Both the position numbers and the translations under genes were made by a program. From the IMG/VR virus record IMGVR_UViG_3300042452_000984, positions 18,632 through 82,631 of that record: a stretch of 64,000 nt of DNA; one strand, 5' to 3'. Source of the stretch: a virus. Below are positions 1 to 60,120 of the stretch, piece after piece; positions within the stretch are counted from its first letter, which is position 1; each line of letters opens with the position of its first letter. The notes beneath the pieces were generated by a model, which saw only the letters and a list, made by a program, of their open reading frames with translations, was not told the DNA's origin and ran no database searches.

Positions 1-1026
1 TCCCCCCTTGCCCCCGATGACTTCAGCCAGTTTGAACCGACCGATATTATCGCGTTCCTGGATTGGTTTGAGCGACAGTACGAGGACGCGATCGCGCTTG
101 GCATTGTCGATGGCTATGTGGAGGGGGTAACCGAACCCTATTTGGTGAATATCTCCACCGGCCAACCGATACCGGAGTGGGTAGCGACCGTCCTCAAGGT
201 ACGAGAGGTGGCCCAGTGGGCGTACCAACAACAGGAACCGATTGCCGCCCGCCTGCGCCGCAACTTGGCCGCCATCATCCCGGATGACCAGGTGGCAGGC
301 TACGCCGCCCGGTTCAGGGTGACACCGCAGGACATTGCTAACGTCCCCCCGGCGGTGAGGGAAAGCTTTAACCAGGGCGCTCGCTTTTCATTGGACTGGG
401 TGAAACGCCTATCCGATGACGCCCGGGGCATGATGCGCGATGTGCTGGCGGTGGAGTCGCTAAAGAACCGTAACCCCGCCGGGGCCGTACCCATCCTTGA
501 AAACCTATTGCGCCGCGATCTAATCGCCCAGGAGCTAGGCGCTGACCCTAGCGCTGTCACCCCGGCCATGGTGCAGGAGTGGTTGATTAATACCGAGTCA
601 CGGTTGTTAAATGCGATCGCGTCCCGGGCGCAGACCATCTCCCGCACCGAATCTATGCGGATGATGAACCTAGGCATCCTGGCCACGCTAGAGGCAAGCG
701 AACAACGGTTGGCCTACGTCATGCCCCACGCGGGCTCCTGCGAGCATTGCCGCCGGTTGATTGACGGTCGCGTTTTTACAATAGAGGTGCTAAAGCGCAA
801 CCTATTTGCTAATTTTGGCGTTCGCCCTGATGCTTGGGTAGCCAGCCTACCTCAGCACCCTAACTGTCGCCATTCGGCTGGCAAGATACCGGTTAAATTC
901 AGGCGCAAGCTTGTCAACCTGGACATCCCACCAGAGGGGCTGGTGCTGCAATACTACGGCTTGCCTGGCGGTAAAACATCCATGGATGCCTTGGAACTGC
1001 CAGAGGTGGAATGGCTAGAGCCCTAG
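1..1026 (+). CDS. Head morphogenesis protein (Mu gpF/SPP1 gp7-like), 5'-truncated
   Basis: Frame open from base 1; RAQTISRTE motif and C-terminal CEHC...PQHPNCRH. Confidence 0.85.
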   Translation, partial: SPLAPDDFSQFEPTDIIAFLDWFERQYEDAIALGIVDGYVEGVTEPYLVNISTGQPIPEWVATVLKVREVAQWAYQQQEPIAARLRRNLAAIIPDDQVAGYAARFRVTPQDIANVPPAVRESFNQGARFSLDWVKRLSDDARGMMRDVLAVESLKNRNPAGAVPILENLLRRDLIAQELGADPSAVTPAMVQEWLINTESRLLNAIASRAQTISRTESMRMMNLGILATLEASEQRLAYVMPHAGSCEHCRRLIDGRVFTIEVLKRNLFANFGVRPDAWVASLPQHPNCRHSAGKIPVKFRRKLVNLDIPPEGLVLQYYGLPGGKTSMDALELPEVEWLEP

Positions 1027-1265
1027 CTAAGTCCCAGGATCGTCAGCCTGTCTTGATCGTAATCCTCTAATACTAGAACGCACTCCGCTCCATTGCAGAT
1101 GAAGTTGAGCGTGATCTGGGTATCTACATGACTCTTTAGCCATCGGGCTGCCACCGCCCCGCAGGCGCCATCCACGCCCTTAAAACGCAAGCGATCGCCA
1201 TCGCTGACAATGTACAGCGCATTTTCTCCGGGAACATACCGAAAACTTTTGAGCGTCATGTGCAT
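1023..1265 (-). CDS. Hypothetical protein
   Basis: 80 aa ORF with GGAGAAGGG RBS, divergent from the early promoter. Confidence 0.55.
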   Translation of the reverse strand: MHMTLKSFRYVPGENALYIVSDGDRLRFKGVDGACGAVAARWLKSHVDTQITLNFICNGAECVLVLEDYDQDRLTILGLS

Positions 1266-1298
1266 GGCTAGCCCCTTCTCCGTGAAATCACTAGATTA

Positions 1299-1339
1299 TT
1301 GCATATTTGCTTGACCATTGCTTATTTGCAATATACTAT
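1299..1339 (+). promoter_or_regulatory. Sigma70-type promoter overlapped by two operator-like sites
   Basis: TTGACC(1311)-17 bp-TACTAT(1334); TTGCATATTTGC 1299-1310 and TTGCTTATTTGCAA 1318-1331. Confidence 0.75.
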
Positions 1340-1403
1340 TTGAAATGTGAGCCACGGGGTTCACGACACTCAAAAGACCACTCAAAAGACCACGGAGAAG
1401 ACT

Positions 1404-1712
1404 ATGAAAAGCTTTATTGTTGCCACCCTGATCGCTACCCTGCTCCCCACCGCTGCCATGGCCACCACCGGGATGCCCGGGCGAGGCGGGGATGGGCACT
1501 GCCCCATCAAGGAGTTGGCCACAGACCCCGACTGCGCCCGCGAGGGCGCCCAATGGCGGGGCACTGGCCGGGAGCAAGCCAAGTCTAAGCGGGACGAATT
1601 CCCCCAGTGCCGAGCTAGCGGTGGCGGTCAGCAGACCGTCTACACCTGCAAGGGTAACCCCCGCAATGAGTTCCCTGGCGATCGCCCCCGGCAACCCCGC
1701 CACCTTGGCTAA
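1404..1712 (+). CDS. Secreted Cys-containing protein with RGTGR pentapeptide (PatX-like)
   Basis: GGAGA RBS; signal peptide MKSFIVATLIATLLPTAAMA; RGTGR at 1557-1571; 4 Cys. Confidence 0.65.
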   Translation: MKSFIVATLIATLLPTAAMATTGMPGRGGDGHCPIKELATDPDCAREGAQWRGTGREQAKSKRDEFPQCRASGGGQQTVYTCKGNPRNEFPGDRPRQPRHLG

Positions 1713-1725
1713 TTGACTGACCCTT

Positions 1726-1760
1726 TGGGGCTGGCTTCGGCTGGCCCCCATTTCGTTTAT
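1726..1760 (+). terminator. Hairpin, intrinsic terminator-like
   Basis: GGGGCTGGC-TTCG-GCTGGCCCC followed by a T-rich tract. Confidence 0.6.
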
Positions 1761-1779
1761 TTAGGAGAACCAGGCAACT

Positions 1780-2550
1780 ATGGCAGACATTGATCCAAAT
1801 TTGGCGATCGCACTCGCGTTAGAGGAGATCGCGGCATCCTTGAAGGCGATTGCGCTATCGGCAATACCCAAAAGTACTCAGCCCCTAGGCTTCCAGGCGG
1901 ACGCCGGGCGGCCAGAGTTTATCTTTGCCAACCTTGTCAAAGGGAATGGCGATGGCTGGTATCGGCTACTGGAAAATAACCAACAGGAAACCATGCCCCC
2001 TGCGTTCTGGGGTTTGGTGAAGGATTTGCGGTTTGTCCAGCGGGAACGGCGAGGCGAAGACGTTACCAAACTCGACTTGGTGATGGAGGGTGAAGACGGC
2101 AAGACTTATATTTTCGAGTCTGGCGCCCAGTCATTTTTTAGCCGCTCCCTACTGACCGCCTTAAGCCTATGCCCTGTAGCTGACTTACAGCAACCCATTC
2201 GATTGTTTAGCTACATTTCAGAGCTACAGACCGGCGACAAAACTCTAAACGTCAGCATCACCTCGCAATCCGGCAAGCTCCAGGCTAGCTGGAAGGCGGA
2301 TGACGACTGGCGGGCGATCGCTACCGAGGCAAAAACCAGGGTTTACAAAGCCTTGGGCAAAGAAGCGCCAGCACCGGAACCCACCACCCAACCAGCGGCA
2401 CCGCCACCAACCCGCAATAGTCCCCCGGCAGGTAATCCACCTGGCGGAGCCCGCGATCGCATTGCCCAACGTGCCAACGCTAAGCCCGTCGCCGCTAAAG
2501 TGACAGACTCGCGGGCGGCAACTGATTGGGATGAAGAGATACCGTTCTAG
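1780..2550 (+). CDS. Putative non-canonical single-stranded DNA-binding protein
   Basis: Beta-rich core, Pro-rich linker, acidic C-terminal tail DWDEEIPF typical of SSBs. Confidence 0.65.
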   Translation: MADIDPNLAIALALEEIAASLKAIALSAIPKSTQPLGFQADAGRPEFIFANLVKGNGDGWYRLLENNQQETMPPAFWGLVKDLRFVQRERRGEDVTKLDLVMEGEDGKTYIFESGAQSFFSRSLLTALSLCPVADLQQPIRLFSYISELQTGDKTLNVSITSQSGKLQASWKADDDWRAIATEAKTRVYKALGKEAPAPEPTTQPAAPPPTRNSPPAGNPPGGARDRIAQRANAKPVAAKVTDSRAATDWDEEIPF

Positions 2551-2558
2551 GAGTAGTT

Positions 2559-2756
2559 ATGAACCAACCTATTCAGCTATCGACTGAGGCAGAGTTTGCG
2601 ATCGCCCAATTTCAGCGATCGCTAGAAAGCCTGGAGTTTACCCGGGAAAACTTCAACGAACTCAAGACCATCGCCCTTGGCTTAAAGCGTCTGGAGGCGG
2701 CCCAACGGGCGTTTCTGGTAGCTCAGGTAAAAGAGTCCTGGGGGAGGCCATTATGA
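2559..2756 (+). CDS. nblA: NblA-like phycobilisome degradation adaptor
   Basis: 65 aa; MNQPIQLSTEAEF...VKESWG resembles NblA MNQPIELSLEQQF...LKHQWG. Confidence 0.75.
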   Translation: MNQPIQLSTEAEFAIAQFQRSLESLEFTRENFNELKTIALGLKRLEAAQRAFLVAQVKESWGRPL

Positions 2757-2986
2757 CCAACCTCAACCGCCTAGTTGACTTAATGCGACAAGCCCGACAG
2801 CGGGCAGTATCGGAGCGATCGCTAGTCATGCCCACTAGCTACTCATCGCGCCGTGGCGTTTCCCATGCTTTTCTCTGTTTGAACTGCAAGTTCTACAACC
2901 CTACCACCCAAGCTTACTTGCGGTGTGCGGTTCACCCTGAAGGGCCGAAGAGCGATACCTTCTGCACTGACAAGGAGGAGCGATGA
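2753..2986 (+). CDS. DUF6464-like Cys-rich protein
   Basis: CKFYN...YLRCAVHPEGP...C motif. Confidence 0.7.
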   Translation: MTNLNRLVDLMRQARQRAVSERSLVMPTSYSSRRGVSHAFLCLNCKFYNPTTQAYLRCAVHPEGPKSDTFCTDKEER

Positions 2987-3525
2987 GGAGACTGTTATTG
3001 CTCGACCACACCGCCCTGGTGCAGCACCGGAATGGCCCCGGTGTCTACATCAACAACCGGGACAATATGACATTGGTTCCAGGCATTCTAGGCGCCCTGG
3101 AGCCCTACGTTGACAGGAACTACAACGTCGCCATCTGTAGCAACCAGGGCGGCGTCGAGAAAGGCCACCTAGCGTTCGGTGCTTGCCAAAACCTATTCGG
3201 TGAAATGTTCAAGCTGTCCAACTATTGGGTTCAGGCCATTTGGTTTTGCCCCCTAGCCCGGGGCAGCACCGGCAGTTATGCCATTCAAATGACGATGCCC
3301 TACGAACCCAAGACCTATACCAAATGCCAAAAGTATGCCACCACCGGCTACCGGATGCCCCAGGCGGGCATGATTTTGGCCGCCATGGACTGGTTTGGGG
3401 TAACGCCTGAGCAGACCACCATGGTGGGCTTACAGCCGGAGGCTTACTATGCCGCCGCTGATGCAGGCGTCAAAAAGTTTGTCCACAGTTCGTACTTTGT
3501 TGAAAAAGCGGGAGTATTGCAATGA
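2983..3525 (+). CDS. HAD-IIIA (GmhB/PNK-phosphatase-like) protein with degenerate active site
   Basis: SNQGGV, FCP, R-x-P-x-x-GM and MVG motifs present; several catalytic residues substituted. Confidence 0.75.
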   Translation: MRRLLLLDHTALVQHRNGPGVYINNRDNMTLVPGILGALEPYVDRNYNVAICSNQGGVEKGHLAFGACQNLFGEMFKLSNYWVQAIWFCPLARGSTGSYAIQMTMPYEPKTYTKCQKYATTGYRMPQAGMILAAMDWFGVTPEQTTMVGLQPEAYYAAADAGVKKFVHSSYFVEKAGVLQ

Positions 3526-4640
3526 AATTTACAGTAGATGCGGGTGATCTGGCAGAGGCGATCGCGCTGTGCGATCGCGCTATCCCTAAGCGCCCTAGCC
3601 GCCCTATCCTGGGCCACATGCTAATGCAGCTAGACAATGGCAGCCTTACCCTAAAAGGGTTTGACGAGGCGCTAGGGATTAGCTTCTCGTTGCCAGTGGA
3701 TATGGAGCAATCCGGTGATTGTTGCATATCCCCAACCTACCTAAAGCCCATCCTGGAGCGCCTATCCGGGCAGGTGGCCTTAGACCTGCAATACCCTGTC
3801 CTGGTGCTAACCACCCTGGGCGCCGAGTACCGGATTAACACCCTCCTGGCTGAGGACTACCCCAACTTGCCCGAGGTGGACGGTACCCCGGTGGAGTTGT
3901 CTATCTCGTCAGAGGAACTACGAGCCGCGATCGCGGCTACGGTGTTCTGCGCCAGTACTGACGAAAGCAAGCAGGTACTTACCGGCGTTCACTTCTCCGT
4001 TACCCCCGGCGAAGGGGGGGAGGCAGGGGTGATGGAGTTAGCGGCCACCGATGGCCATCGGATGATCGCCTACCCGCTACCCGGTAGCGTTGTCATCCCC
4101 GATGACTATCGCCCCGTCACCCTGCCCGGGAAGAGCCTGCGGGAACTGCTAACCGTCCTGAAGGGCGAGGGTGCCGTCAAGCTGACGTTTGATGACGTGT
4201 CTGTGCGTGCCCTATGCGGGGACACCGAGCTCTATAGCCGGGTTATCGAGGGGCAATACCCCAACTACCGGCAGCTATTCCCCAAGGTGTTCTCTAAGGT
4301 GGCGACCTGCGATCGCAAGCCATTCTTAGCCGCCCTCGATCGCACCTTGGTGGTGGCCGGTGAAAACAAGGACATCGTTAAGCTGGAGTTTGACACCACT
4401 GGGCTGGTGATGAGTGCAGAGGCAAAAGAAGCGGCCAAAGCTCAGGAACATGTCGAGGGCGTAACCTGTAGCGAACCCATCACCCTAGCGGGGAACGGTA
4501 AGTACATCAAGGAGGCGCTAACCAATGCGATCGTGGGTGAAACCTTCACTATGGAAATGAATAAGCCAGAAAGCCCAGTGGTTTTTACAGATGGGTCCCC
4601 GGCGACCTATTTAATGATGCCCATTCAGATTAGGGGTTAA
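3522..4640 (+). CDS. dnaN: DNA polymerase III beta sliding clamp
   Basis: 372 aa; RPILG, STDESKQVLTGVH, ATDGHR, GQYPNY, YLMMPI motifs. Confidence 0.95.
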   Translation: MKFTVDAGDLAEAIALCDRAIPKRPSRPILGHMLMQLDNGSLTLKGFDEALGISFSLPVDMEQSGDCCISPTYLKPILERLSGQVALDLQYPVLVLTTLGAEYRINTLLAEDYPNLPEVDGTPVELSISSEELRAAIAATVFCASTDESKQVLTGVHFSVTPGEGGEAGVMELAATDGHRMIAYPLPGSVVIPDDYRPVTLPGKSLRELLTVLKGEGAVKLTFDDVSVRALCGDTELYSRVIEGQYPNYRQLFPKVFSKVATCDRKPFLAALDRTLVVAGENKDIVKLEFDTTGLVMSAEAKEAAKAQEHVEGVTCSEPITLAGNGKYIKEALTNAIVGETFTMEMNKPESPVVFTDGSPATYLMMPIQIRG

Positions 4641-4642
4641 CC

Positions 4643-4822
4643 ATGGACCTACAGCCCGGTTACGCGATCGCCTATCGTCCATCCACGGAAGAGCCCTGGC
4701 AGCAAGCGTCTGTCTTTGCGGTCATTGGCGACAAGGTGATGGTTAAGTTGCCCCTGGGCGGCAACACGTCCAGAATCGTCACGGTGGACATTGACAGTGG
4801 TTTGATAGGGCCACCGTTCTGA
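4643..4822 (+). CDS. Small beta-rich hypothetical protein (59 aa, not in ORF track)
   Basis: MDLQPGYAIAYR...GLIGPPF fills the gap; stop overlaps next ATG (TGATG). Confidence 0.65.
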   Translation: MDLQPGYAIAYRPSTEEPWQQASVFAVIGDKVMVKLPLGGNTSRIVTVDIDSGLIGPPF

Positions 4823-5562
4823 TGCAGGAGTTTTACATAGGCTGGCATCAGCCCGTCAACGGCCTGTCTGGCTGCGGGGATTTTCCCCGGTGCATGGTGT
4901 CAGTCAATCGACTTCTAAGGCGTCGCTCTCCCTTCCCGGTTCAGTCCTGGATATTGGATAGCGGCGCTTTTACTCGCATTGCTGGCGGACAAGGGCACCT
5001 GCCATTAGAAGACTATGCCAAAGAGATCCGGCGATGGGCAAAAAACGGCAACCTTGTGGCAGCTGTGGCACAGGACTATATGTGTGAACCATTTATCCTT
5101 GGCAAGACCGGGCTAACAATCCAAGACCACCAACGGCTAACCATAGAGAACTACGATCGCCTGCTTGCCCTAAATACCGGCGTCTATATCATGCCAGTAT
5201 TACAGGGCTACTCTCCCGCTGACTACGTTAGACACCTGCACGATTACGGCGATCGCTTGCACCATGGACAATGGGTAGGGGTGGGTTCTGTCTGCAAGCG
5301 AAACAGCAACCCTGGGGCAATTGAAGCCGTCTTGATGGCGATTAAGGCGGCCCGCCCCGATCTGAGGTTGCACGGGTTTGGCGTTAAGAAGACCGCCCTA
5401 GAATCTTCAATTGTGTGGGACTTACTTTACTCAGCAGACAGCCAAGCCCATAGCTTTGCAGCACGGATGGAGAACCGAAACGCCAATTGCCCAAAGGTTG
5501 CGCTTAATTACGCCAAAGGCATCGGCAGCCCCTTGCAGGCATCCATATTTTCAGCGTTCTGA
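4822..5562 (+). CDS. TGT-fold (queuine tRNA-ribosyltransferase/DpdA-like) transglycosylase
   Basis: ILDSGAF, QDYMCEP, MPVLQG, GVGSVCKR, LHGFGVK, SADS motifs. Confidence 0.8.
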   Translation: MQEFYIGWHQPVNGLSGCGDFPRCMVSVNRLLRRRSPFPVQSWILDSGAFTRIAGGQGHLPLEDYAKEIRRWAKNGNLVAAVAQDYMCEPFILGKTGLTIQDHQRLTIENYDRLLALNTGVYIMPVLQGYSPADYVRHLHDYGDRLHHGQWVGVGSVCKRNSNPGAIEAVLMAIKAARPDLRLHGFGVKKTALESSIVWDLLYSADSQAHSFAARMENRNANCPKVALNYAKGIGSPLQASIFSAF

Positions 5563-5573
5563 TGCCGCACCCA

Positions 5574-5615
5574 AAACAAAACACCCCGGCCAAATGACGA
5601 CCGGGGTGTTTTGTT
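5574..5615. terminator. Bidirectional terminator
   Basis: AACAAAACACCCCGG ... CCGGGGTGTTTTGTT between convergent genes. Confidence 0.85.
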
Positions 5616-5627
5616 GCTTGGATGACG

Positions 5628-5897
5628 CTATTCAACCTCAGCCTTCCTAAGAGCTTGCCAAATGTCTTGAAAATCAGTCTCTTCCTCAAGGTTAATAGGC
5701 TCGCACTCTTCTAACGCGGCTAAAGCTTGGGCGGCATAATACTCGCCAGAGGCGTAATCGTCAAAGATTTTGATAACAGTAGGGCTTACGTTTTCGGCCA
5801 TTAACCCAGAATAGGGATTAACGTTTGTGTCAGCATTTAACCGAGAAAAAGCTTGATTGATTTGAGTGGCATAGTCAGCAGCAGTAGCAGTAGTCAT
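5628..5897 (-). CDS. Hypothetical protein with its own promoter (moron-like)
   Basis: GGAG RBS before MTTATAADY. Confidence 0.65.
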   Translation of the reverse strand: MTTATAADYATQINQAFSRLNADTNVNPYSGLMAENVSPTVIKIFDDYASGEYYAAQALAALEECEPINLEEETDFQDIWQALRKAEVE

Positions 5898-5929
5898 AAT
5901 TGGTAACTCCAAGTGGTTCAACAATTTCA

Positions 5930-5958
5930 ATAGTAAAAGACCTTTATCGTATTGTCAA
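5930..5958 (-). promoter_or_regulatory. Sigma70 promoter
   Basis: TTGACA-17 bp-TACTAT on the minus strand. Confidence 0.75.
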
Positions 5959-6079
5959 CACTTTTCGATAAATTAGTTAAACCGTCGCGATCGCGTGTCA
6001 ACCCAACCATTTCTCGAACCTACGCTAAGATAGGCATAGCGTAGGCATAATTTATTTTTTCCTAGTCCGTATCTCCTCC

Positions 6080-9000
6080 ATGGTTCTTCCTCTGGAGGCT
6101 ATCCTGTCCAAGTCAGCCGATATGGTTGTGGGCGGGGTAGCCTCCAATTTTTTTAGAGATCTTGACGGCGATGCCATTTGCCCGGACGCGATTCAACGCG
6201 CTATTCCTGGCTTCATGGCAACCCGTGGCCCGGACGGGCTAAAGGGTGGCCCCATTCGCCTGCACCATGGTTTTTGGGAGCGATTTCTAAAGCAGTCCAT
6301 CTCTGCCCTTAATATTCCCTACGACCAGCAAGTGGGGCTACTTGCCGCGATCGCGCTCCCCCTGGGCCGGGTGACTGAGATGAGCGTTGATAGCGATGGC
6401 ACTACGCGTTGGCGGGGTGTTCTATCTGGCGCTAACCCCATCGCCCGGGTGGTGTGGAATATGCTCAAAGAGGGCATGGTTCACCTTGGCGTTAGCGTTG
6501 GCGGCAAGATCAACGGTGTACGCCCCGGTAGAGATGCGATCGGGCGGACCTGTAACCTAATTACCGACGTGCGGCTCGATGAGCTCAGCATCACTGACAA
6601 CCCAGCCAATCGATTAATTGAGTCCGAGACCCCCGACAATGGCGCGTACATTACCGCGCTTGCTAAATCTGTGGGTAATACCATGCTCGCTCAGAAACAA
6701 CAGCCTTACATCTACCTGAATGGCATCGCCTATACCGCTCACCCTAGCGAGGAACATGGCATTGTCCTACGCAAGGCAGGACGGCGGCGGGCACCCTCCC
6801 CGGGCCAGCTAGGCTTGTTTGGTGGGCACAATGAGGGCGATACCAAGGTAGAGGACGGTGTTACCTATCGGCTAAATAGCAATAGCCGGTGGGAGCGGAT
6901 GGATAAACCCAAGGCCAGCGGTAAGCCGTCTGGCGGGAAGAAGAAGGCGGAAAAGCCTGCGATCGTCCCGGTGGTGGAGGCGGAGAAACGAGCAGAGACA
7001 CCAGCAAAGGCAAAAGCGGCTAAGCCGAAGGCAAGACGACAAAAGGAGCCAAAACCATATCTAGAAGATCAAAGCCCTTCATTATTGGCGGCAGAGCTAG
7101 ACAAAATTAAGAATTTTCTGGCATTGGCTGATGCTGGACTTGTAAGCATAACTCCCAGAAAGCGCAAGCAAACCGAGGCTTACCTGAAGCAGGTCAAAGA
7201 CGCACTTTTTGAAATAACCAAGCCTGACGACGACGCGCCAAGCATGTCTGACAACGATCTCCTGCAGGAGCTAGGCGTAGCAGGCATGTCTGACGACGAC
7301 CTTATGCGAGAGCTAGGCGTTGAACCCGCCGCCCAGAACCCCGAACCCACCGTTGGCGAAATGCTGGAACAGCAGCAAGCGGAGATAGCTGAGTCGAAAC
7401 CAGTTATCTCAGGCAGGCAATTTGTCGAAGAGTTTATTTCCGCCTGGAATGACACCCATGGTTCAGAGTGGAACCGCGATGCTGCGGGGTACACAAAGGC
7501 CAAAATATGGGACAAAAAAGACGGGGAGATCCGGGTTTACTTTGGCTCCGTTAAGCAGCCATTGGTTTTCAGAAAGCAAGATAATGGCGAATACGTCGCC
7601 GCTGTAACCCCTGGTAAGTATGGACTTGACGAACAAATCGCCCCTATCCTTGACGATCTAAATTCACGGTTTTCTACCAAGCCTGAAAGCACTAAGGCTG
7701 ACCAAGGCTCTGCCGGAACCCAGCAACGAGTATTGATGCAAGAAGACGAAGACGGCGTTGTTGCACCTGCAGGACAACACGAACGTGGCGTCCATATCGT
7801 GCGGGAATGGTACGAGTCAGAACCATCTCCCAAGCCCACCGTTGGCGAAATGCTGGAACAGCAGCAAGCCGCGATCGCGGATGAGCCTATGCCTGAGAGT
7901 GAGGCGATGGAGGGGGCGGAGGATGGTGCGGCACCCACATGGGAAGACGTGCCTCAACTTTTTGAAAGCGGTGACTACGAAAAAATCCCTCAAGCCCTAG
8001 GAGTAGATCCTAGATATGGGCTGTCCCCGAGTCAGGCGTCTAGGTTTCTAAACATCCTTGGAATAAAAGAAGCTAAAGCCAAAAAGATTCTTGGGCAGGG
8101 CTACCTAGAGCAAGAGCGAAAAGAATACCCAAGCATTCAACCCGATCCCGATCCTAAACGCTACTACGATCTTGATAAGCTCGTTGACGCCATTAACGAG
8201 GCAAAGGCGTTTAAGGGAGTCAAGGCGCTGCAAAAACCTAAGGCAGAGCGCCCTAAGCGCGAACTAAAAGAAGAAGAGCTTACGCTAACGGATAATGACT
8301 GGAAGAGGCTAGCCAAGCTAAAAGGCGCCATGCCTTTCTCACCAAATTTTCTAGGTGATGGAGTTGGTGCGGAAACCTACTATTGGGTGCCAAATCATGC
8401 AATAAAAGACGCCGAATACCTAAAAAGAAAGTTAGGTTTTTATATAAAGCGCGATTTTAGCTGGAACAGAATAGAAGGCGCCAACTTTGTTATGCGGGAA
8501 GACGTCATTGATAATGTACTTGGCTACATTATTAAACCTAAATCCGAGCCCGCCGCCCAGGACCCCGAACCCACTCTCACCAAATCTCTCACCCCCTCAC
8601 TCCCCATGACTATCGATAACTTCCTCCGCAAAGCCCTGGGTAATCCTGGGCGTGAGTTTGGTTCTGGCTCATGGCGGGATACGGGCATCCCGGCGATGGG
8701 CCGTAAAGTTGACGCCAAAAGCCCGCAGCCCAAGGGCGGCAAAAAGGTACAAATGGATGAGTCCGGTAGTGCCCATGCCGGTAAGGGTATCGGTGGCAAA
8801 CAACCCAAGGCCCATCGCCCCTACTCTTCCGGCGGCATGCCCCCCACCGATGTATTTGGTATCACCATCACCCAACTAACCCGCAACTTGGCCAAAGCCT
8901 GCTACATGGACAAAGATGCCTGGGGTAGCCCGGAGACCGTTTCTTTCTTGACCGACAGCGCCAGGGCGATCGCGGGCATGACTGACACCCCGACCGACCC

Positions 9001-9244
9001 GATGGTGAACTTTGTCCGGTTTTTGCAATACTGCACCCGTTTCGCCCAAGAATTGCCGTTTATGAACGACTACCAGGCGGCGGGGACGGTGAAGGCGATG
9101 AATGCCGACCTAACCAAAGCGCTGGACGAATTCGTAGAGAAGATGCCTGAGGAGCTAAAGGGAAAACCTTTGCGCCCTGCCGGTTCACCCGGCGTTGTGG
9201 GCATCGACGTTCAGTTTCCCCAACAGTACGTTATTTACTCCTAG
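6080..9244 (+). CDS. Prohead protease (HK97-type) fused to a large modular insert and a C-terminal domain
   Basis: N-terminal GVAS..RDLDGD, IRLHH, GVSVGG, LDELSITDNPAN protease motifs; then about 600 aa of repeat-punctuated insert. Confidence 0.85.
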   Translation: MVLPLEAILSKSADMVVGGVASNFFRDLDGDAICPDAIQRAIPGFMATRGPDGLKGGPIRLHHGFWERFLKQSISALNIPYDQQVGLLAAIALPLGRVTEMSVDSDGTTRWRGVLSGANPIARVVWNMLKEGMVHLGVSVGGKINGVRPGRDAIGRTCNLITDVRLDELSITDNPANRLIESETPDNGAYITALAKSVGNTMLAQKQQPYIYLNGIAYTAHPSEEHGIVLRKAGRRRAPSPGQLGLFGGHNEGDTKVEDGVTYRLNSNSRWERMDKPKASGKPSGGKKKAEKPAIVPVVEAEKRAETPAKAKAAKPKARRQKEPKPYLEDQSPSLLAAELDKIKNFLALADAGLVSITPRKRKQTEAYLKQVKDALFEITKPDDDAPSMSDNDLLQELGVAGMSDDDLMRELGVEPAAQNPEPTVGEMLEQQQAEIAESKPVISGRQFVEEFISAWNDTHGSEWNRDAAGYTKAKIWDKKDGEIRVYFGSVKQPLVFRKQDNGEYVAAVTPGKYGLDEQIAPILDDLNSRFSTKPESTKADQGSAGTQQRVLMQEDEDGVVAPAGQHERGVHIVREWYESEPSPKPTVGEMLEQQQAAIADEPMPESEAMEGAEDGAAPTWEDVPQLFESGDYEKIPQALGVDPRYGLSPSQASRFLNILGIKEAKAKKILGQGYLEQERKEYPSIQPDPDPKRYYDLDKLVDAINEAKAFKGVKALQKPKAERPKRELKEEELTLTDNDWKRLAKLKGAMPFSPNFLGDGVGAETYYWVPNHAIKDAEYLKRKLGFYIKRDFSWNRIEGANFVMREDVIDNVLGYIIKPKSEPAAQDPEPTLTKSLTPSLPMTIDNFLRKALGNPGREFGSGSWRDTGIPAMGRKVDAKSPQPKGGKKVQMDESGSAHAGKGIGGKQPKAHRPYSSGGMPPTDVFGITITQLTRNLAKACYMDKDAWGSPETVSFLTDSARAIAGMTDTPTDPMVNFVRFLQYCTRFAQELPFMNDYQAAGTVKAMNADLTKALDEFVEKMPEELKGKPLRPAGSPGVVGIDVQFPQQYVIYS
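7242..8574 (+). repeat. Direct repeats delimiting domains inside the protease insert
   Basis: 35 bp identical 7346-7380/7835-7869; 29 bp (2 mismatches) 7322-7350/8546-8574; tandem MSDxDLxxELGV 7242-7320. Confidence 0.9.
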
Positions 9245-9259
9245 CTAGGTAACTAGAAA

Positions 9260-10084
9260 ATGGACCCACAAACCCTACAAGCCTTGATGGGAGTATTCCA
9301 ACAAGGCTTACAAATTCTGCAATCTGCCCAGGCGGGTGCCGGCGCGCCCCCTACCGCTGGTGCCCCCGCCGCCAATGGTGCCCCCGCCGCCAATGGTGCG
9401 CCACCCATGGCCGCCGGTGCCCCTCCCGCCATGGACCCCGACGACGAGGACATGGAAGAGGATGACGAGGACATGGATGCCCCCGATGCCATGGATGCTG
9501 ATGATGACGAAGACGACATGGACGACAGCGGCATGGGTGGTTCCTCCCTGCACGATCGCGTCAGTCAGCTAGAAAACCACACCGGCCTTAAGAAAAGCGC
9601 CCGGGGTGGCTCCTTACTTGATGCCGTCGCTGCCCTCGAAGAAACTATCCTTGGCACCGAATACGAAGGTCCCCTAGTAGATCGCGTCAACCAATTAGAG
9701 AAAGCGGCAGGTATCAGCCAACGCGCCCAGGACCAAGCACCGGACGAAATCCCGCTAGAAAACTTGATCAAAAGCGCGATCGAATCCGGCATCCAACAAG
9801 CCATGGCAACCCGTGACCCGGAGGCCAACGAAGACCCGGACGCTATCCCCGACCTACGCCAGATGCGCAAAGCAGCCAAGGGCCAGCGTTATGGCAGTCG
9901 TAAGGGCGTCGCTGGCGCGATCGTCAGTGATGAGGACCTGGTAAAGAGTGCTGCCAGCCTTGGCTGGGACGGCGATGACCTGGACCGCCCCGTGTCCTTC
10001 GGTGATGCGCTGTTGCTGCAATACCATTCACAACAAGCGGGTGAGCCACTGCCATTTTCAGCCGATGAGGCTGACGACGATTAA
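9260..10084 (+). CDS. Capsid scaffolding protein
   Basis: Between protease and capsid; low-complexity acidic and coiled segments; 18-bp GAPAAN tandem repeat. Confidence 0.65.
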   Translation: MDPQTLQALMGVFQQGLQILQSAQAGAGAPPTAGAPAANGAPAANGAPPMAAGAPPAMDPDDEDMEEDDEDMDAPDAMDADDDEDDMDDSGMGGSSLHDRVSQLENHTGLKKSARGGSLLDAVAALEETILGTEYEGPLVDRVNQLEKAAGISQRAQDQAPDEIPLENLIKSAIESGIQQAMATRDPEANEDPDAIPDLRQMRKAAKGQRYGSRKGVAGAIVSDEDLVKSAASLGWDGDDLDRPVSFGDALLLQYHSQQAGEPLPFSADEADDD

Positions 10085-46696: not shown

Positions 46697-46745
46697 ATTA
46701 TTTGTGACATCCGATAGACTAAGGCTATGCACTCTCGTTAGAGAG

Positions 46746-47609
46746 ATGGACATTGACGTAAAGCGCTTATCAGATGAACTTCTCGAAATCCGGATGCGCT
46801 ACACCGGGGAGGAGACCCAGCACTTTTTGTTAGCCTCAGACATTCACCTGGATAACCCAAAGTGCGATCGCAAGCTATTCTTCTCTCATCTCGATAAAAT
46901 GAAGGCTCTCGGTGGTAGAGCCTTATTTTTTGGCGACGTGCTATGCCTGATGCAGGGCAAACGCGACAAACGCGGCAGCAAGTCCAGCATCCGCCCCGAG
47001 CACCAGGGGGCCAATTATTTTGACTTGGTATTCAAAGAGTCTGCCGATATTCTTGGCCCCTACGGCAAAGAAATTTTGATGATGGGCAATGGCAACCACG
47101 AAACTGCCATTATCAACAATCAAGAGGTGGACCCACTCGCTAACGTAGTGCAGCAGATGCGCGATCGCCATAAGGCGGTTACTGAGCACATGGGTTATCA
47201 GGGCTGGGTGCGTTTTGTGTTTTACAAGCAGCGCGGCAATGGCGTCGAAAAGGTACGACGCTGCACCCTGTTTTTTCACCATGGCGCCTGGGGCGGCATC
47301 ATCACCAAAGGCACCATGGGCGGCGGTCGCTACGCCAGTATCGCCCCAGATGCCGATATTATCGTCAATGGCCATAACCACGAACGCAGCATTGTCAGCC
47401 ACCCTTGCTATCGCTTGGCGGAGACCGGCAAGGTAAAAGTAACTCCGCGATACCATGTACAGACCGGCACCTACAAAGAAGAATTTGAGGGCGGCAACGG
47501 CTGGGCGGTGGAGCGCATTGTCATGCCGAAAAGCCTCGGCGGCGTCTGGCTGAAGCTTACCCCCGATCGCCAGTCAGGCGTTACCGTATCGCTAGAACCT
47601 GCTGTCTGA
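46746..47609 (+). CDS. Calcineurin-like metallophosphoesterase
   Basis: SDIH, GD, GNHE, HHG, GHNH motifs. Confidence 0.88.
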   Translation: MDIDVKRLSDELLEIRMRYTGEETQHFLLASDIHLDNPKCDRKLFFSHLDKMKALGGRALFFGDVLCLMQGKRDKRGSKSSIRPEHQGANYFDLVFKESADILGPYGKEILMMGNGNHETAIINNQEVDPLANVVQQMRDRHKAVTEHMGYQGWVRFVFYKQRGNGVEKVRRCTLFFHHGAWGGIITKGTMGGGRYASIAPDADIIVNGHNHERSIVSHPCYRLAETGKVKVTPRYHVQTGTYKEEFEGGNGWAVERIVMPKSLGGVWLKLTPDRQSGVTVSLEPAV

Positions 47610-55954: not shown

Positions 55955-56011
55955 TAGCGTAAATAGCTTTTCGTAAGATAGTTGACACCGTAAAGTTCTT
56001 TACGCTATTAT
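55955..56011. promoter_or_regulatory. Divergent promoter with palindromic operator
   Basis: TTGACA 55982; CGTAAAG-TT-CTTTACG 55989-56004; related copy 55958-55973. Confidence 0.7.
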
Positions 56012-56090
56012 TGAGCATGACAAAGCAAGCCCCGCCCGGGTTGCAGCCCAAGCGGGGAAGTAAAACCACTCACCAAAGAGGTCTGCTGAC

Positions 56091-56333
56091 ATGTTAACCC
56101 AAGTTGTTGAAACCCGCACTCCTGTTACCGCCACCCCTGCCCTTGTCAAATTTTTTGCCTCTTTAGTCGGGGAGGTGGACGGCGAGTTTACCTTCACTGT
56201 TGAGGTTGTCGAAATTCAGGACAGCTACATGGGGCTGGAGGACAAGCAGCGGATTGAGGCTGCTGTTGAGGAGCAATTCCCAGGGCTGGCCGTCATGGAG
56301 TTCTGGCGGTGCCGCCGCGATAGCCTGCTGTAG
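56091..56333 (+). CDS. Hypothetical protein
   Basis: 80 aa, divergent from the XRE gene. Confidence 0.6.
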   Translation: MLTQVVETRTPVTATPALVKFFASLVGEVDGEFTFTVEVVEIQDSYMGLEDKQRIEAAVEEQFPGLAVMEFWRCRRDSLL

Positions 56334-56527
56334 TTGCGATCGCCGTCGCCCCACAGCGTTAGCGAGGGGGATTTGTCCTTACCAAATTTTGTTATGCCAC
56401 GTTTCGCTGTTTATCGTTGGTTAATGCGCCGCCTAGGACGGTCCCTGGAAGCCCTGGCCCACTGGATTGATAACACTCTAGCTAGCGCCTGCTACTGGCA
56501 GGCTAGGGAGCCAGGAGAAGAGTAGAA

Positions 56528-56596
56528 TCAAAAGACCTCCGTAGATCGCTACAGAGGTCTTTTGAGTGATGCCCTGGGGAAACCTGGGGCTTTCCT
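56528..56596. terminator. Paired terminators between convergent units
   Basis: TCAAAAGACCTC..GAGGTCTTTTGA and GCCCTGGG-GAAA-CCTGGGGCTTT. Confidence 0.75.
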
Positions 56597-58501
56597 TTAG
56601 ACGGCTAAATCGCCAAAAATGCTTGGCTGTTGATGTTCTGGCAGATTAAGCAAAGGATCGCTATCCAAAAATTGTTTTTTCTTTTTTGAATCAAACTGAA
56701 TTTCCCATATAGTCTTAAACTGTTGCTGAAGAGGGTTTTCTAGGCAAGCTTTAAGCTTTTCTATGTCTTCCCAAGATGTATCGTAAATTTCAGTCCACAG
56801 CCATTTGAAGAAAATCTCTTTTTGAATAAGACATCTAGCTCTTTCATGGCTGCAACCTATCCGACCGTTTTTATTAGATACAGTTATGCCGATGCTGTAA
56901 CACTCCCTAACCCTGCCTACACGTTGCATATCGGCAAATATGATATAAACAGCAGGATTGAAAAGCTTAACAGGCTTTCTCCCGTCCCAACAGTGCCAGT
57001 TTGGCAGGCCAGAGGGAGTAAACATAGGGGGCAACCCGAACTTTTCAACTATTTCATTGGATCTTGTCGTGCTAGGAGCAATCCCTGCAAACTCTCCATC
57101 TATTGACTGGACAGAGAACGGTTGAGCCTTTTTAAGAGCTCTTTCAAAACGATACTCCATGTTGTTGTCTGCTTGAGCAAGGCGTTGATCAATCTGATCA
57201 ATCCGATCATAAAGCGAAGTGTGAGCCAGATCGCCGGTTGGTATTGTGTCTAACTGCCTATTCCTGCCGTTGTCAGCGGCTTGCTTGACCATAGCGGGGA
57301 TGCTCTGAATTAGCCGTATAGTGGCATCACGAACGGCTCGACCCATCTCACCCTCGCTTATCCAGGACATCCGCAACACCCCGGCCATGTTGTAGATGTT
57401 GGCTTGAGAGATGTATTTAGGCAAAGAAGGCTTCCCAGAGGCTACCAACTCTGAGTTGGTAGCCTCCCGGAAGTCCCTCAGAGCGTGACTTTCAAGCTTT
57501 TGGACCTCCCCAGCCTCTATAAATTCATCCCTGTGTCTCTGGAAATTTCTATCAAGCGCTCTAGAAGAAAGCCCTAAAAACGCTGCAACCTCGTTAGTGG
57601 TCATCCATTTGGTGTCTTGCCATTGCGCCCAAAATAGGTCTTTAATGTTCAACTCGCTAAAAACCTCTTCCATGGGGCGGCTATCGCCAAAGCCCGCCAT
57701 AGCGGATTGCCTGGATTGCTTCTTGGTGTACAGGTCGATAGCGCCTGGGGGTTCAACAACCTCCGCCGCCACCTCAGCAGGGGGCTCAACAATCTCCGCC
57801 ACTATAACGGGAGGCTTAATCGACTTAGCCTCAGCGACAGCCGGGGTAGGCTCTGGCTTGCTGTGAGGGTTTACACAGTAGTAGGTCGTAAACCGATCTT
57901 TCCAAGTATGCAACCTTCCCTGGGCCAGCAAAAGATCTCTTCGAGGAACAACATATTCTTGAAAACGTTTCCTATCTGGTCCGCTAGTCCTAGCCTTCTT
58001 GTACAAAACTTTTGCTGTAACCGGATGGCTAGCACACTCCAAAATCCTTTGATCAATAATTTCCCAGATCTCTTCTTTAGTCTTTAAACTAAATGAGAAC
58101 TTTTTGGCGCGACGATTTGATCTAGTTGCTGGCTTGGCCGCAGCTTGCTTAACTTCGACAACCGGCTCAGTGTTCTCTGGTAGCAGCTTGAACAATGGCA
58201 GAACCGGTTGCTCAGGAGCTTTGTCCCAACATAAAACCTTGTAGTTGCCTTTTCCTTTGGGAGGCTGCATGTAAGGGAAAATCAATTCGATTTGTTGTTT
58301 TGTATACCAACTGCCATGGGCTCGCGCAGAAATGATGATGTCTTTGATTAGTTGCGGCGTGCTGTTCAGCTTTTCTACCGTATTCAACGCACGACGAACA
58401 AGCTCAGCGCTTGGATGTGCCCGTTCTGCTTTGGGCATCACATAAATAACCCAGGAAAGATCCTCGGGGGAATATAGACGATCTTCAGAAGAAGCGTTCA
58501 T
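56597..58501 (-). CDS. Multidomain antirepressor-like protein with ORF6N-type domain
   Basis: MTTNEVAAFLG...NFQRHRDEFIE...KLE...LRDF...GVLRM. Confidence 0.65.
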   Translation of the reverse strand: MNASSEDRLYSPEDLSWVIYVMPKAERAHPSAELVRRALNTVEKLNSTPQLIKDIIISARAHGSWYTKQQIELIFPYMQPPKGKGNYKVLCWDKAPEQPVLPLFKLLPENTEPVVEVKQAAAKPATRSNRRAKKFSFSLKTKEEIWEIIDQRILECASHPVTAKVLYKKARTSGPDRKRFQEYVVPRRDLLLAQGRLHTWKDRFTTYYCVNPHSKPEPTPAVAEAKSIKPPVIVAEIVEPPAEVAAEVVEPPGAIDLYTKKQSRQSAMAGFGDSRPMEEVFSELNIKDLFWAQWQDTKWMTTNEVAAFLGLSSRALDRNFQRHRDEFIEAGEVQKLESHALRDFREATNSELVASGKPSLPKYISQANIYNMAGVLRMSWISEGEMGRAVRDATIRLIQSIPAMVKQAADNGRNRQLDTIPTGDLAHTSLYDRIDQIDQRLAQADNNMEYRFERALKKAQPFSVQSIDGEFAGIAPSTTRSNEIVEKFGLPPMFTPSGLPNWHCWDGRKPVKLFNPAVYIIFADMQRVGRVRECYSIGITVSNKNGRIGCSHERARCLIQKEIFFKWLWTEIYDTSWEDIEKLKACLENPLQQQFKTIWEIQFDSKKKKQFLDSDPLLNLPEHQQPSIFGDLAV

Positions 58502-58619
58502 CGCTTGTGCCCAGACTGCAAATATGTCGCCCTATCAATCACAGATTGTATCTATAATAGACGCTTGTTTGCAATATGATACTGAAGCAGCAATTTAGCC
58601 ACTCTATTGTAAAAGTGCT

Positions 58620-59899: not shown

Positions 59900-60120
59900 C
59901 CCTACAAGCGCTCAGGGCTATCAAAGATACCACTGGCAATACGCCCCAGGTGAAAGCCATAGCGGCCTTCCTGCTAGAGGCGGCCAATGCTGAGTATCCA
60001 GGCGGCTACGTGGGCGACCCGAGCGACCCACGGGACAGGGCGGTAGTAGAGGCCCAGCGTGACTACTGGCAGCGGTTTATGGCAGGCGAGGACGTGGAGG
60101 AAAATTATTACGACCTGTAG
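59866..60120 (+). CDS. Hypothetical protein
   Basis: 84 aa; its 5' end is the duplicated repeat. Confidence 0.6.
   Translation: MPLADRTSYRNALQALRAIKDTTGNTPQVKAIAAFLLEAANAEYPGGYVGDPSDPRDRAVVEAQRDYWQRFMAGEDVEENYYDL

What the first reader, a model, noticed from the sequence alone, without database searches (positions are those of the whole stretch)
1404..1712. Phage-encoded PatX/PatS-like morphogen mimic (secreted protein with RGTGR)
Seen: first gene behind a consensus promoter with two operator-like sites and its own hairpin. It has a signal peptide (MKSFIVATLIATLLPTAAMA), then W-RGTGR-E at 1557-1571 between two Cys pairs. Known: RG[S/T]GR is the HetR-inhibiting pentapeptide of PatS, HetN and PatX. 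PatX proteins have a signal peptide plus this motif and co-occur with hetR in filamentous cyanobacteria. Inference: the phage exports a HetR-antagonist signal that could act on neighbouring cells of the filament, or uses it for phage-to-phage signalling. I know of no described phage example.
Basis: partly seen in the sequence, partly recalled or inferred. Interest (0 to 1): 0.87.

Follow-up and report, generated by a model that had tools for sequence, protein, structure and literature searches.

The report
Cyanophage exported protein carrying RGTGR cassette
A lake virus of cyanobacteria makes a small, probably exported, floppy protein that carries the exact short peptide filamentous cyanobacteria use to switch off their developmental regulator HetR, so it may tamper with host cell signalling, but its host and any binding are still unknown.

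Summary
Window 1404-1712 (+) encodes a 102-aa protein with a signal-peptide-like N-terminus, two Cys pairs and W-RGTGR at 1554-1571. It sits behind a promoter-like site with repeats and before a hairpin terminator.

The window is part of an 82.6-kb IMG/VR virus record, a myovirus-like phage with an integrase. HIP1 (GCGATCGC) occurs 127 times against 1.5 expected, so the host is a cyanobacterium.

The protein belongs to an orphan, module-shuffled family found almost only in lake viral and metagenome contigs.
- [W/Y]RG[S/T]GR is an optional cassette: 19 of 45 clusters carry it, and 27 of 78 in the profile search.
- Where present it is never degenerate.
- It is kept in all four phages of this lineage, although the gene falls to 42-63% identity between flanks that are 94-100% identical.

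Weaknesses:
- Most relatives lack the cassette.
- The cassette also occurs in a second phage group with no HIP1 at all.
- No PatX model matches.
- Binding is untested.

Best reading: a PatX-like exported HetR-inhibitor mimic (0.38).

This scan has flagged the same design before on other DNA. Five library searches found no paper describing it.

The parts
1023..1265 (-). Divergently transcribed 80-aa gene of unknown function; it shares the intergenic control region with the gene of interest
   Evidence: ORF list. No Pfam or PHROG match. 100/63/96% identical in L003/L004/L007.
1291..1339 (+). Promoter-like site (TTGACC 1311-1316, 17 nt, TACTAT 1334-1339) overlapped by two 19-nt direct repeats (ATTGC[A/T]TATTTG cores) and an inverted repeat: candidate operators
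   Evidence: Nearly invariant in the four group A phages (A2 alignment).
1347..1364 (+). Imperfect inverted repeat GTGAGCC-ACGG-GGTTCAC just downstream of the -10 element: a further operator-like site or 5'-UTR element
   Evidence: Read. Invariant in all four sequences of A2. Function not tested.
1367..1390 (+). Tandem duplication of a 12-nt unit (CACTCAAAAGAC x2) in the 5' leader
   Evidence: Two copies in the window and L003, one copy in L004 and L007.
1404..1712 (+). Coding sequence of the 102-aa exported protein P0001 (stop included), preceded by GGAG at 1395-1398
   Evidence: sense frame open in 7 of 7 loci. 44 homologs.
1404..1463 (+). Signal-peptide-like N-terminus (residues 1-20, predicted cleavage AMA|TT)
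   Evidence: Heuristic hydropathy and AXA scan. 38 of 45 family members pass. No SignalP was available.
1554..1571 (+). W-RGTGR cassette (residues 51-56), identical to the RG[S/T]GR HetR-inhibitor peptide of PatS/HetN/PatX
   Evidence: Codons compared. A population variant inserts 9 nt directly behind it and leaves it intact (run X23).
1727..1758 (+). Intrinsic-terminator-like hairpin plus T-rich tail, separating the gene from the downstream SSB-like, clamp and DpdA genes
   Evidence: The stem is invariant in all four group A phages.

Best explanation
P0001 is the product of a self-contained, hypervariable 'moron'-type cassette of a cyanobacterial myovirus-like phage that carries an integrase. 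The cassette has its own promoter, operators and terminator.

Proposed mechanism:
1. The protein is exported by a Sec-type signal peptide. This is inferred from sequence.
2. It is largely disordered. This is shown only as a low-confidence AlphaFold model.
3. In this phage lineage it displays an accessible [W/Y]RG[S/T]GR cassette between two small disulfide loops.
4. Like PatX, it is cut outside the cytoplasm, and the released RG[S/T]GR-containing peptide re-enters cells of the filament. There it blocks HetR, or whatever receptor reads RG[S/T]GR peptides in non-heterocystous filaments. The infected or lysogenic cell and its neighbours are thereby kept in a state that suits the phage.

Shown here: the anatomy of the gene, the cyanobacterial host signal, and the distribution and conservation of the cassette.
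Inferred: export, processing, uptake, HetR as the target, and a hetR-bearing host.
For: 1. Exact motif with only the natural S/T alternation.
- R, G, G and R are invariant in 19 of 19 cassette-bearing clusters. Position 3 is T in 11 and S in 8. The preceding residue is W in 16 and Y in 3. The downstream flank has 1.7-3.2 bits of entropy.
- In the profile search, 27 of 78 clusters carry a perfect motif, and my scan of the insert site found no degenerate version.

2. Retention under shuffling.
- The window, L003, L004 and L007 share flanking genes at 94-100% aa identity. This gene is only 63% (L004) and 42% (L007) identical, yet all four keep the cassette.
- In the DNA alignment the conserved islands are the promoter/operator region, the DPDCAREGAQ-WRG[ST]GR block, and the 3' end with the terminator.
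- The cassette occurs with both N-modules, all three C-modules and all three tails.
- All 11 clusters with this lineage's signal-peptide type carry it, against 8 of 34 others. Fisher p = 7e-6, not corrected for relatedness.

3. Codon evidence, small. Among four distinct alleles the 18 nt show two synonymous changes and one T-to-S change, and nothing else.

4. Design matches PatX biology.
- PatX has a Sec signal, and export is required for its activity.
- A periplasmic peptidase, PatP, cuts on both sides of HRGTGR, even when a large fusion partner follows.
- The free hexapeptide binds HetR at 88 nM.
- (PMC12756182, sections 8, 9 and 13.)

5. The protein is predicted to be disordered (mean pLDDT 49.7, pTM 0.11). 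That is compatible with a protease-accessible precursor.

6. The host is a cyanobacterium. HIP1 occurs 127 times against 1.46 expected, about 2 per kb. This is in the upper part of the 300-2700 per Mb range given for most non-picocyanobacteria in PMC4390886, Table 2.

7. Members of the P0005 cluster (P0005; also P0053, by length) carry a tandem RGTGRGTGR.
Against: 1. The host is not identified. No isolate phage or plasmid relatives were found, and only lake metagenome runs hold the sequence. By my inference from recalled GC values, 55% GC argues against the low-GC Nostocales bloom formers. A unicellular, hetR-less host of the Synechococcus elongatus type is not excluded.

2. The cassette is optional. 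26 of 45 clusters (51 of 78 in the profile search) lack it. A third allele, EEYQEQ, occupies the same site. The family's core function therefore does not need it.

3. The cassette also occurs in group B phages (L002, L009). These have no HIP1, and two whole group B records (G004, which holds L009, and G005) have no CGATCG at all. Their host is probably different and may lack hetR.

4. Two loci with moderate HIP1 (L012, L017) lack the cassette.

5. The 18 nt are identical between the window and group B loci although the flanks differ. Recent spread by recombination could therefore mimic conservation.

6. No PatX-named NCBIfam model matched any of 45 members at E<=10. The motif is central, and is preceded by W/Y rather than the H of PatX6 or the E of PatS6.

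7. Full-length signal-less PatX did not bind HetR in a two-hybrid assay, so everything depends on processing that has not been shown.

8. [quoted passage not shown]
Confidence: 0.38

Rival explanations
1. The family is an exported envelope or periplasmic moron protein with another job, for example superinfection exclusion, receptor masking or interference with competing phages. The [W/Y]RG[ST]GR cassette would then be one of several interchangeable linker alleles, perhaps a protease site or a contact for a non-HetR partner. Its identity with the HetR-inhibitor peptide would be coincidental.
For: - The invariant part of the family is the GDG.CP...DPDC loop, not the cassette.
- 51 of 78 clusters lack the cassette, and a third allele (EEYQEQ) sits at the same site.
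- Extreme diversification between near-identical phages (42-63% against 94-100% in the flanks) is what arms-race genes look like. That generalisation is my own knowledge.
- The family spans phage groups with opposite HIP1/CGATCG signatures.
- The gene has its own promoter and terminator, as morons do.
Against: - It does not explain why the cassette is never degenerate (27 of 27).
- It does not explain why position 3 uses only S or T, as the natural HetR inhibitors do.
- It does not explain why every member with this lineage's signal peptide keeps the cassette through module shuffling (11 of 11).
- No match to any defence or phage family: PHROGs gave none. PADLOC was not searched.
Confidence: 0.32
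2. The cassette is a selectively neutral or hitch-hiking 18-nt patch, spread recently by short-patch recombination among co-circulating lake phages. The match to RG[ST]GR is a chance hit surfaced by a motif-driven scan.
For: - The 18 nt are identical in the window/L003 and in group B L002/L009 despite divergent flanks.
- The number of RG[ST]GR in the record equals that of permuted controls.
- A scan of about 250,000 windows is expected to throw up thousands of chance pentapeptide matches. This is my own estimate from residue frequencies.
Against: - L004 and L007 carry synonymous differences and a T/S swap, so the alleles are not all recent copies.
- S and T versions are both common (8 and 11).
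- The preceding W/Y is also conserved.
- The cassette is retained in all four group A phages while both flanking modules were exchanged.
Confidence: 0.17
3. The protein is the precursor of a phage-to-phage communication peptide, analogous to arbitrium. It would be exported, cut, re-imported and read by a phage receptor to set the lysis-lysogeny decision.
For: - Signal peptide plus short conserved peptide, in a phage that carries an integrase.
- The gene sits at a divergent control region with operator-like repeats.
Against: - No receptor candidate. The neighbouring 80-aa and 256-aa products have no Pfam or PHROG match, and nothing in them suggested an AimR-type receptor.
- Communication peptides are expected to differ between phage lineages. 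Here the same peptide is shared by unrelated backbones, and many close relatives have none.
Confidence: 0.08

Closest known systems
PatX (Asl2332 of Nostoc/Anabaena PCC 7120 and the hetR-linked small ORFs of filamentous cyanobacteria)
   Same: - Small protein with an N-terminal Sec-type signal and an RG[S/T]GR motif.
- PatX must be exported, and PatP cuts out HRGTGR, which binds HetR at 88 nM (PMC12756182, sections 8, 9 and 13).
- P0001 has the same two elements and a disordered body.
   Different: - No sequence relationship: no PatX-named NCBIfam hit in 45 members at E<=10.
- 102 aa against 56 aa.
- The motif is central and is followed by 46 residues that include a second Cys pair.
- The residue before the motif is W or Y, not H.
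- Encoded by a virus and not next to hetR.
- No TCCGGA (DIF1) in 1266-1403, read.
- The cassette is optional within the family.
PatS (13-17 aa peptide ending in RGSGR) and HetN (reductase-like protein with an internal RGSGR)
   Same: Same pentapeptide. HetN shows that an internal motif can be active (PMC7761841 passages).
   Different: - P0001 is neither a 13-17 aa peptide nor a protein with a reductase domain; no Pfam domain was found.
- PatS and HetN are not described as Sec-exported in the passages I read.
Phage morons / lysogenic-conversion exported proteins (general class; recalled from the literature, not tested)
   Same: - Self-contained promoter-gene-terminator unit between conserved phage genes.
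- Small exported product.
- High variability between otherwise identical phages.
   Different: - No homology to any described member (PHROGs none).
- Carries a host signalling peptide.
Arbitrium AimP-type phage communication propeptides (recalled)
   Same: Signal peptide plus a short peptide that would need extracellular processing and re-import.
   Different: - No AimR-like receptor gene nearby.
- The peptide is internal, not C-terminal.
- The same peptide is shared across unrelated phage backbones.

Membership tests
PatX | RG[S/T]GR pentapeptide present | tested here: met
   RGTGR at residues 52-56, nt 1557-1571.
PatX | N-terminal Sec-type signal sequence | tested here: met
   My heuristic only: K2, a hydrophobic core of 2.69, and AMA|T. 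38 of 45 family members pass. SignalP was not available.
PatX | Sequence match to the curated PatX model of NCBIfam. The accession NF047413 is a lead from earlier scan notes; I did not verify it. | tested here: not met
   None of 45 members matched a PatX-named model at E<=10. The only weak hits were BRANT, HvfA, an amidase and TrbK.
PatX | Motif at or near the C-terminus of a very small protein (56 aa in Nostoc, PMC12756182 section 13) | tested here: not met
   102 aa. The motif is at 52-56 and 46 residues follow it.
PatX | Gene adjacent to hetR, or at least in a hetR-bearing genome | tested here: inconclusive
   No Peptidase_S48/HetR match in the virus record, but that search rang in none of the 14 control genomes either. 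The host genome is unknown, and cyanobacterial genomes could not be reached from a virus record.
PatX | Processing by PatP, and the released peptide inhibits HetR DNA binding | not testable with these tools
   This needs biochemistry.
PatS | 13-17 aa peptide ending in RGSGR | tested here: not met
   102 aa with an internal motif.
HetN | Short-chain dehydrogenase/reductase fold with an internal RGSGR | tested here: not met
   No Pfam domain at E<=0.01. Only noise at E<=10.
Phage moron (self-contained accessory cassette) | Own promoter and terminator, located between conserved phage genes, variable between close relatives | tested here: met
   Promoter-like site and terminator-like hairpin. Flanking genes are 94-100% identical while the gene is 42-63% identical. 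Expression was not shown.
Arbitrium AimP | Adjacent AimR-type receptor gene, and a C-terminal mature peptide | tested here: not met
   The neighbouring products have no Pfam or PHROG match. The peptide is internal.

The most novel reading that the evidence does not exclude
Temperate phages of filamentous cyanobacteria broadcast a counterfeit host morphogen. An infected or lysogenic cell exports a precursor whose RG[S/T]GR peptide spreads along the filament and switches off HetR in neighbouring, uninfected cells. A virus would then be steering the developmental pattern, or the HetR regulon, of a multicellular bacterium. The cassette would move as an independent module between unrelated phage backbones.
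Probability: 0.3. Interest if true: 0.9.

Novelty: new variant of a known kind. Interest (0 to 1): 0.7.

Why it matters
RG[S/T]GR peptides are the diffusible inhibitors of the best-studied bacterial pattern-forming system (HetR with PatS, HetN and PatX).

A virus-encoded, exported carrier of the same peptide would be the first viral mimic of a bacterial developmental morphogen. It would extend phage 'host signal hijacking' from quorum sensing to multicellular patterning.

It would also give an ecological handle on what HetR and PatX do in non-heterocystous filaments. The Leptolyngbya BL0902 paper calls this 'a mystery'.

No paper describing such a phage gene appeared among the papers listed by five full-text searches:
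- PatX + HetR + RGSGR
- cyanophage + RGSGR
- Lake Mendota + cyanophage + prophage + Cyanobacteria, any three of the four terms (only 12 of 467 matching papers were listed)
- RGTGR + phage
- cyanophage + HetR + PatS

The library does not hold most subscription journals.

If the motif turns out to be unrelated to HetR, the gene is still a clear example of a module-shuffled, hypervariable exported phage protein.

Tried and rejected
Host identification led nowhere.
- No near DNA match in the phage collection.
- No capsid or P0001 match in the phage collection.
- Sheath and terminase hit only distant Bacillus, Gordonia and Streptomyces phages.
- Clamp, methyltransferase, integrase and P0001 against plasmids were uninformative or empty.
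- No tRNA genes. No Rfam family. No psbA in G001-G005.
- The capsid protein in IMG/VR found only metagenome-derived records.
- The one genome-contig hit, L002, is a 2.8-kb contig binned into a Limisphaerales MAG. That MAG showed no match to the phage exonuclease, so I treat the contig as a stray. Neither does this prove it is one.
- Sequencing-run search: all 24 runs listed are lake or freshwater metagenomes.

Expression: RNA contigs of run X24 laid on window 1-10000 did not cover 335-1670.

Binding: complex prediction with two copies of Swiss-Prot HETR_NOSS1 and residues 21-102 of P0001 (alignment A1) gave 'no answer' with score 0.00. This is not evidence for or against binding.

Fold and family:
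- The AlphaFold model is low-confidence, so no fold search was run.
- Nothing was found in Pfam at E<=10, a PDB profile search, PHROGs, NCBIfam or among longer proteins.
- The ESM Atlas gave only hits below 0.9.

Rejected ideas:
- That the antisense 151-aa ORF is the real gene. It has stops in 5 of 7 loci.
- That the record is an integrated prophage with host flanks. G003 is a rotated version of the same gene order.
- Prochlorothrix as host. It has 711 HIP1 per Mb against about 2000 here. This is a weak argument.

Supplementary tables that could bear on host inference were not available to me: Elhai 2015 Table S2 (per-genome HIP1 counts) and Xu 2025 Table S3 (hetR, patX and patP by genome).

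Papers:
- PMC7761841: listing abstract and passages.
- PMC12756182: outline, abstract and sections 8, 9, 10, 13 and 14.
- PMC11298460: passages.
- PMC4390886: passages and section 6.
- PMC5861425: listing abstract and passages.
- Elhai & Khudyakov 2018: not seen; known only through citations in the papers above.

Full report
WHAT IS THERE.

Window 1404-1712 (+) is an open frame of 102 codons. The product is MKSFIVATLIATLLPTAAMA|TTG..., with these features:
- a positively charged start, a hydrophobic core and an AXA-type site (heuristic);
- Cys33 and Cys44;
- W51 followed by RGTGR (52-56, nt 1557-1571);
- Cys68 and Cys80;
- a Pro/Arg-rich tail ending in HLG.

A GGAG lies 5 nt before the ATG (1395-1398). 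Upstream there is one promoter-like site, TTGACC-17-TACTAT at 1311-1339, matching 9 of 12 positions. It is overlapped by two 19-nt direct repeats and an inverted repeat. Downstream, a 9-pair hairpin at 1727-1748 is followed by a T-rich tail.

The sense frame is open in all 7 loci I checked. The antisense 151-aa ORF of the window is broken in 5 of them.

WHAT GENOME IT IS IN.

The window is bases 18632-82631 of an 82.6-kb IMG/VR virus record with CheckV completeness 78%. It encodes:
- a major head protein, tail sheath and baseplate wedge;
- a portal and a large terminase;
- a large serine-recombinase-type integrase (PHROG 95, E = 3e-43);
- a sliding clamp and DpdA.

It is a myovirus-like phage. 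Because it carries an integrase it is probably temperate, though integration was not shown.

GCGATCGC (HIP1) occurs 127 times in the window against 1.46 expected. Over the whole record it occurs 173 times against 1.8 expected. That is about 2000 per Mb, in the upper part of the 300-2700 per Mb range that Elhai (PMC4390886, Table 2) gives for most cyanobacteria outside the picocyanobacteria. The host is therefore a HIP1-rich cyanobacterium. GC content is 55%.

The gene lies between a head-morphogenesis gene (1-1026) with a divergent 80-aa gene, and a run of early or replication genes. These are a 256-aa product ending in DWDEEIPF, then the clamp, then DpdA.

THE FAMILY.

P0001 has no Pfam, NCBIfam, PHROG or PDB relative. 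Search results were:
- 44 homologs of 88-126 aa in the 5.8-billion-protein set;
- 13 cluster representatives in the 1.84-billion set;
- 78 clusters in a profile search;
- no longer forms.

Sources are metagenomes. The gene was found in 7 IMG/VR contigs of 29-92 kb, 11 short JGI contigs, and one 2.8-kb contig of a lake MAG among 185,579 species genomes. The sequence is held by 23 lake or freshwater DNA runs. This is a virus-borne family, not a host gene.

The invariant residues are G29, D30, G31, C33, P34, D41, P42, D43 and C44. The rest is a mosaic:
- two N-modules (GRGGDGHCP or LRGDGYCP);
- three C-modules (CRASGGG..YTC, CMNGxC, CRNWxxGxPxPxGC);
- three tails (HLG, PRAV, PRAPRK).

With the 45-row alignment AlphaFold gives mean pLDDT 49.7 and pTM 0.11. 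The protein is probably largely disordered.

THE CASSETTE.

[W/Y]RG[S/T]GR is an insertion after CAREGAQ.
- It is present in 19 of 45 clusters and 27 of 78. An early count of 20 in my notes was wrong.
- The remaining clusters have either no insert (Q-[TQ]LSKSS) or a third allele (EEYQEQ) at the same place.
- Where the cassette is present, R, G, G and R are invariant. Position 3 is T (11) or S (8). The preceding residue is W (16) or Y (3). The residues after it are highly variable, at 1.7-3.2 bits.
- My scan of the insert site found no degenerate version among 78 clusters.
- One cluster has RGTGRGTGR.
- A population variant in DNA run X23 inserts 9 nt directly behind the motif and leaves it intact.

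TWO PHAGE BACKBONES, AND A HOT SPOT.

Group A consists of the window, L003, L004 and L007.
- Neighbouring genes are 94-100% identical, but this gene is 100%, 63% and 42% identical respectively.
- The DNA alignment shows conserved islands at the promoter/operator region, at the DPDCAREGAQ-WRG[ST]GR block, and at the last 40 nt plus the terminator. The modules between them have been swapped.
- All four keep the cassette.
- All 11 clusters with this group's signal-peptide type (M[KR][SN]F) have the cassette, against 8 of 34 others. Fisher p = 7e-6, not corrected for relatedness.

Group B consists of L002, L005, L006, L008, L009 and most of the short contigs.
- It has a different backbone; the clamp is only about 33% identical.
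- It nevertheless shares an exonuclease at 87-88% aa identity and an integrase at 67-71%, with one in-frame TAA.
- It has no HIP1 and no CGATCG at all in two whole records of 72.8 and 77.5 kb, where the reversed control pattern occurs 100-109 times. Group A records have 209-250 CGATCG.
- Of the group B loci, L002 and L009 carry the cassette and the rest do not.

Two further contigs with moderate HIP1 (L012, L017) lack the cassette.

CODONS.

The 18 nt are identical in the window/L003 and in L002/L009 although the flanks differ. L004 has one synonymous change. L007 has one synonymous change and the T-to-S change. By my rough count, three changes that are all synonymous or T/S is unlikely under neutrality (about 0.02). 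The sample is tiny, and identity across the two groups also fits recent short-patch recombination.

IS IT MORE THAN CHANCE?

The single occurrence is not. The six frames of the record hold two RG[ST]GR, the second in a 33-codon antisense frame, and permuted controls gave 0-3. A motif-driven scan of this size must produce many chance hits.

What is unusual is the combination:
- a cyanobacterial virus;
- a signal-peptide-like N-terminus;
- a disordered body;
- a cassette that is perfect wherever it is present, with exactly the S/T alternation of natural HetR inhibitors;
- retention of the cassette through module shuffling in this lineage.

COMPARISON WITH WHAT IS KNOWN.

PatX of Nostoc (56 aa) has a functional Sec signal, and export is required for its activity. 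The periplasmic peptidase PatP cuts on both sides of HRGTGR, even when MBP follows. The hexapeptide binds HetR at 88 nM and releases it from DNA. Signal-less full-length PatX did not bind in a two-hybrid assay (PMC12756182, sections 8, 9 and 13). The same paper reports patP in 86% of cyanobacterial genomes, and patX and hetR mainly in Nostocales and Oscillatoriales (section 14).

P0001 works like PatX on paper: signal, accessible motif, and a possible internal cleavage. It is not a member of the family:
- no model match;
- the motif is central;
- W or Y precedes it rather than H;
- it is not linked to hetR.

It is also neither PatS nor HetN, by size and by domain content.

In Leptolyngbya BL0902, deleting patX or hetR changes hundreds of transcripts. 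There the effects of PatX seemed largely independent of HetR. In non-heterocystous hosts the target of an RG[ST]GR peptide may therefore not be HetR alone.

VERDICT.

The design and conservation pattern point to a functional, exported RG[S/T]GR carrier.
- The decisive facts are missing: a hetR-bearing host, processing, and binding.
- The optional nature of the cassette, and its presence in HIP1-free phages, keep the unrelated-function and neutral readings alive.
- I put the PatX-mimic reading at 0.38, another envelope function at 0.32, a neutral patch at 0.17 and phage-phage signalling at 0.08.

Earlier notes of this scan describe the same design in a close relative (e1-6028655) and in other cyanophage families. 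I used them as leads only. No paper describing a phage-encoded RG[S/T]GR protein appeared among the papers listed by five full-text searches (one search listed only 12 of 467).

Noticed in passing
whole records G004 and G005 (loci L009, L006) against G000, G002, G003: The two phage groups share an 87-88% identical exonuclease and a 67-71% identical integrase, but have opposite site statistics. Group B has zero CGATCG in 72.8-77.5 kb (reversed control pattern 100-109) and no HIP1. Group A has 209-250 CGATCG and about 2 HIP1 per kb. Group B is instead enriched in TGGATCCA (22 against 1.1 expected) and GCTAGC. This looks like total restriction-site avoidance versus HIP1 amelioration, and points to different hosts or lifestyles.
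   Followed up: partly
window 46704-47609; L005:11701-12561; L009:12123-12983: At the two HIP1 sites of the window's exonuclease gene, the group B copies read GTGATCGC and GCGGGACCGC or GCGGGGCCGC. The HIP1 sites therefore differ by point changes within an otherwise 78-80% identical gene.
   Followed up: partly
window 1780-2550: The 256-aa product downstream of the terminator ends in DWDEEIPF. From memory, this resembles the acidic C-terminal tip of bacterial SSB proteins. It has no Pfam or PHROG match.
   Followed up: no
window 6080-9244: The 1054-aa product upstream of the capsid gene is highly mosaic between close relatives. Lake contigs skip 344-1913 nt inside it (for example 6690 to 8604 in an RNA contig, and 6980 to 8545 in a DNA contig). 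L003, L004 and L007 match it only in blocks.
   Followed up: no
G004:C1:45001-46323 and G005:C1:62391-63722: The integrase homologs of the two group B records each contain one in-frame TAA. They may be broken genes or a recoding or assembly issue.
   Followed up: no
window 56000-60000: A low-GC island (0.445-0.495 against about 0.56) holds a 634-aa protein with a weak anti-repressor-like match and a 351-aa protein with a MUG113/T5orf172-type domain. No HIP1 occurs between 56343 and 61179.
   Followed up: no
window 60842-63864 and G003: The portal gene lies at the right end of the record while the head genes lie at the left of the window. In G003 the order of the integrase and the P0001 gene is rotated relative to G000. 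This suggests a circularly permuted genome of roughly 88-92 kb.
   Followed up: partly
window 1367-1390: A perfect 12-nt tandem duplication sits in the 5' leader of the gene. It is present in the window and L003 but is a single copy in L004 and L007.
   Followed up: partly
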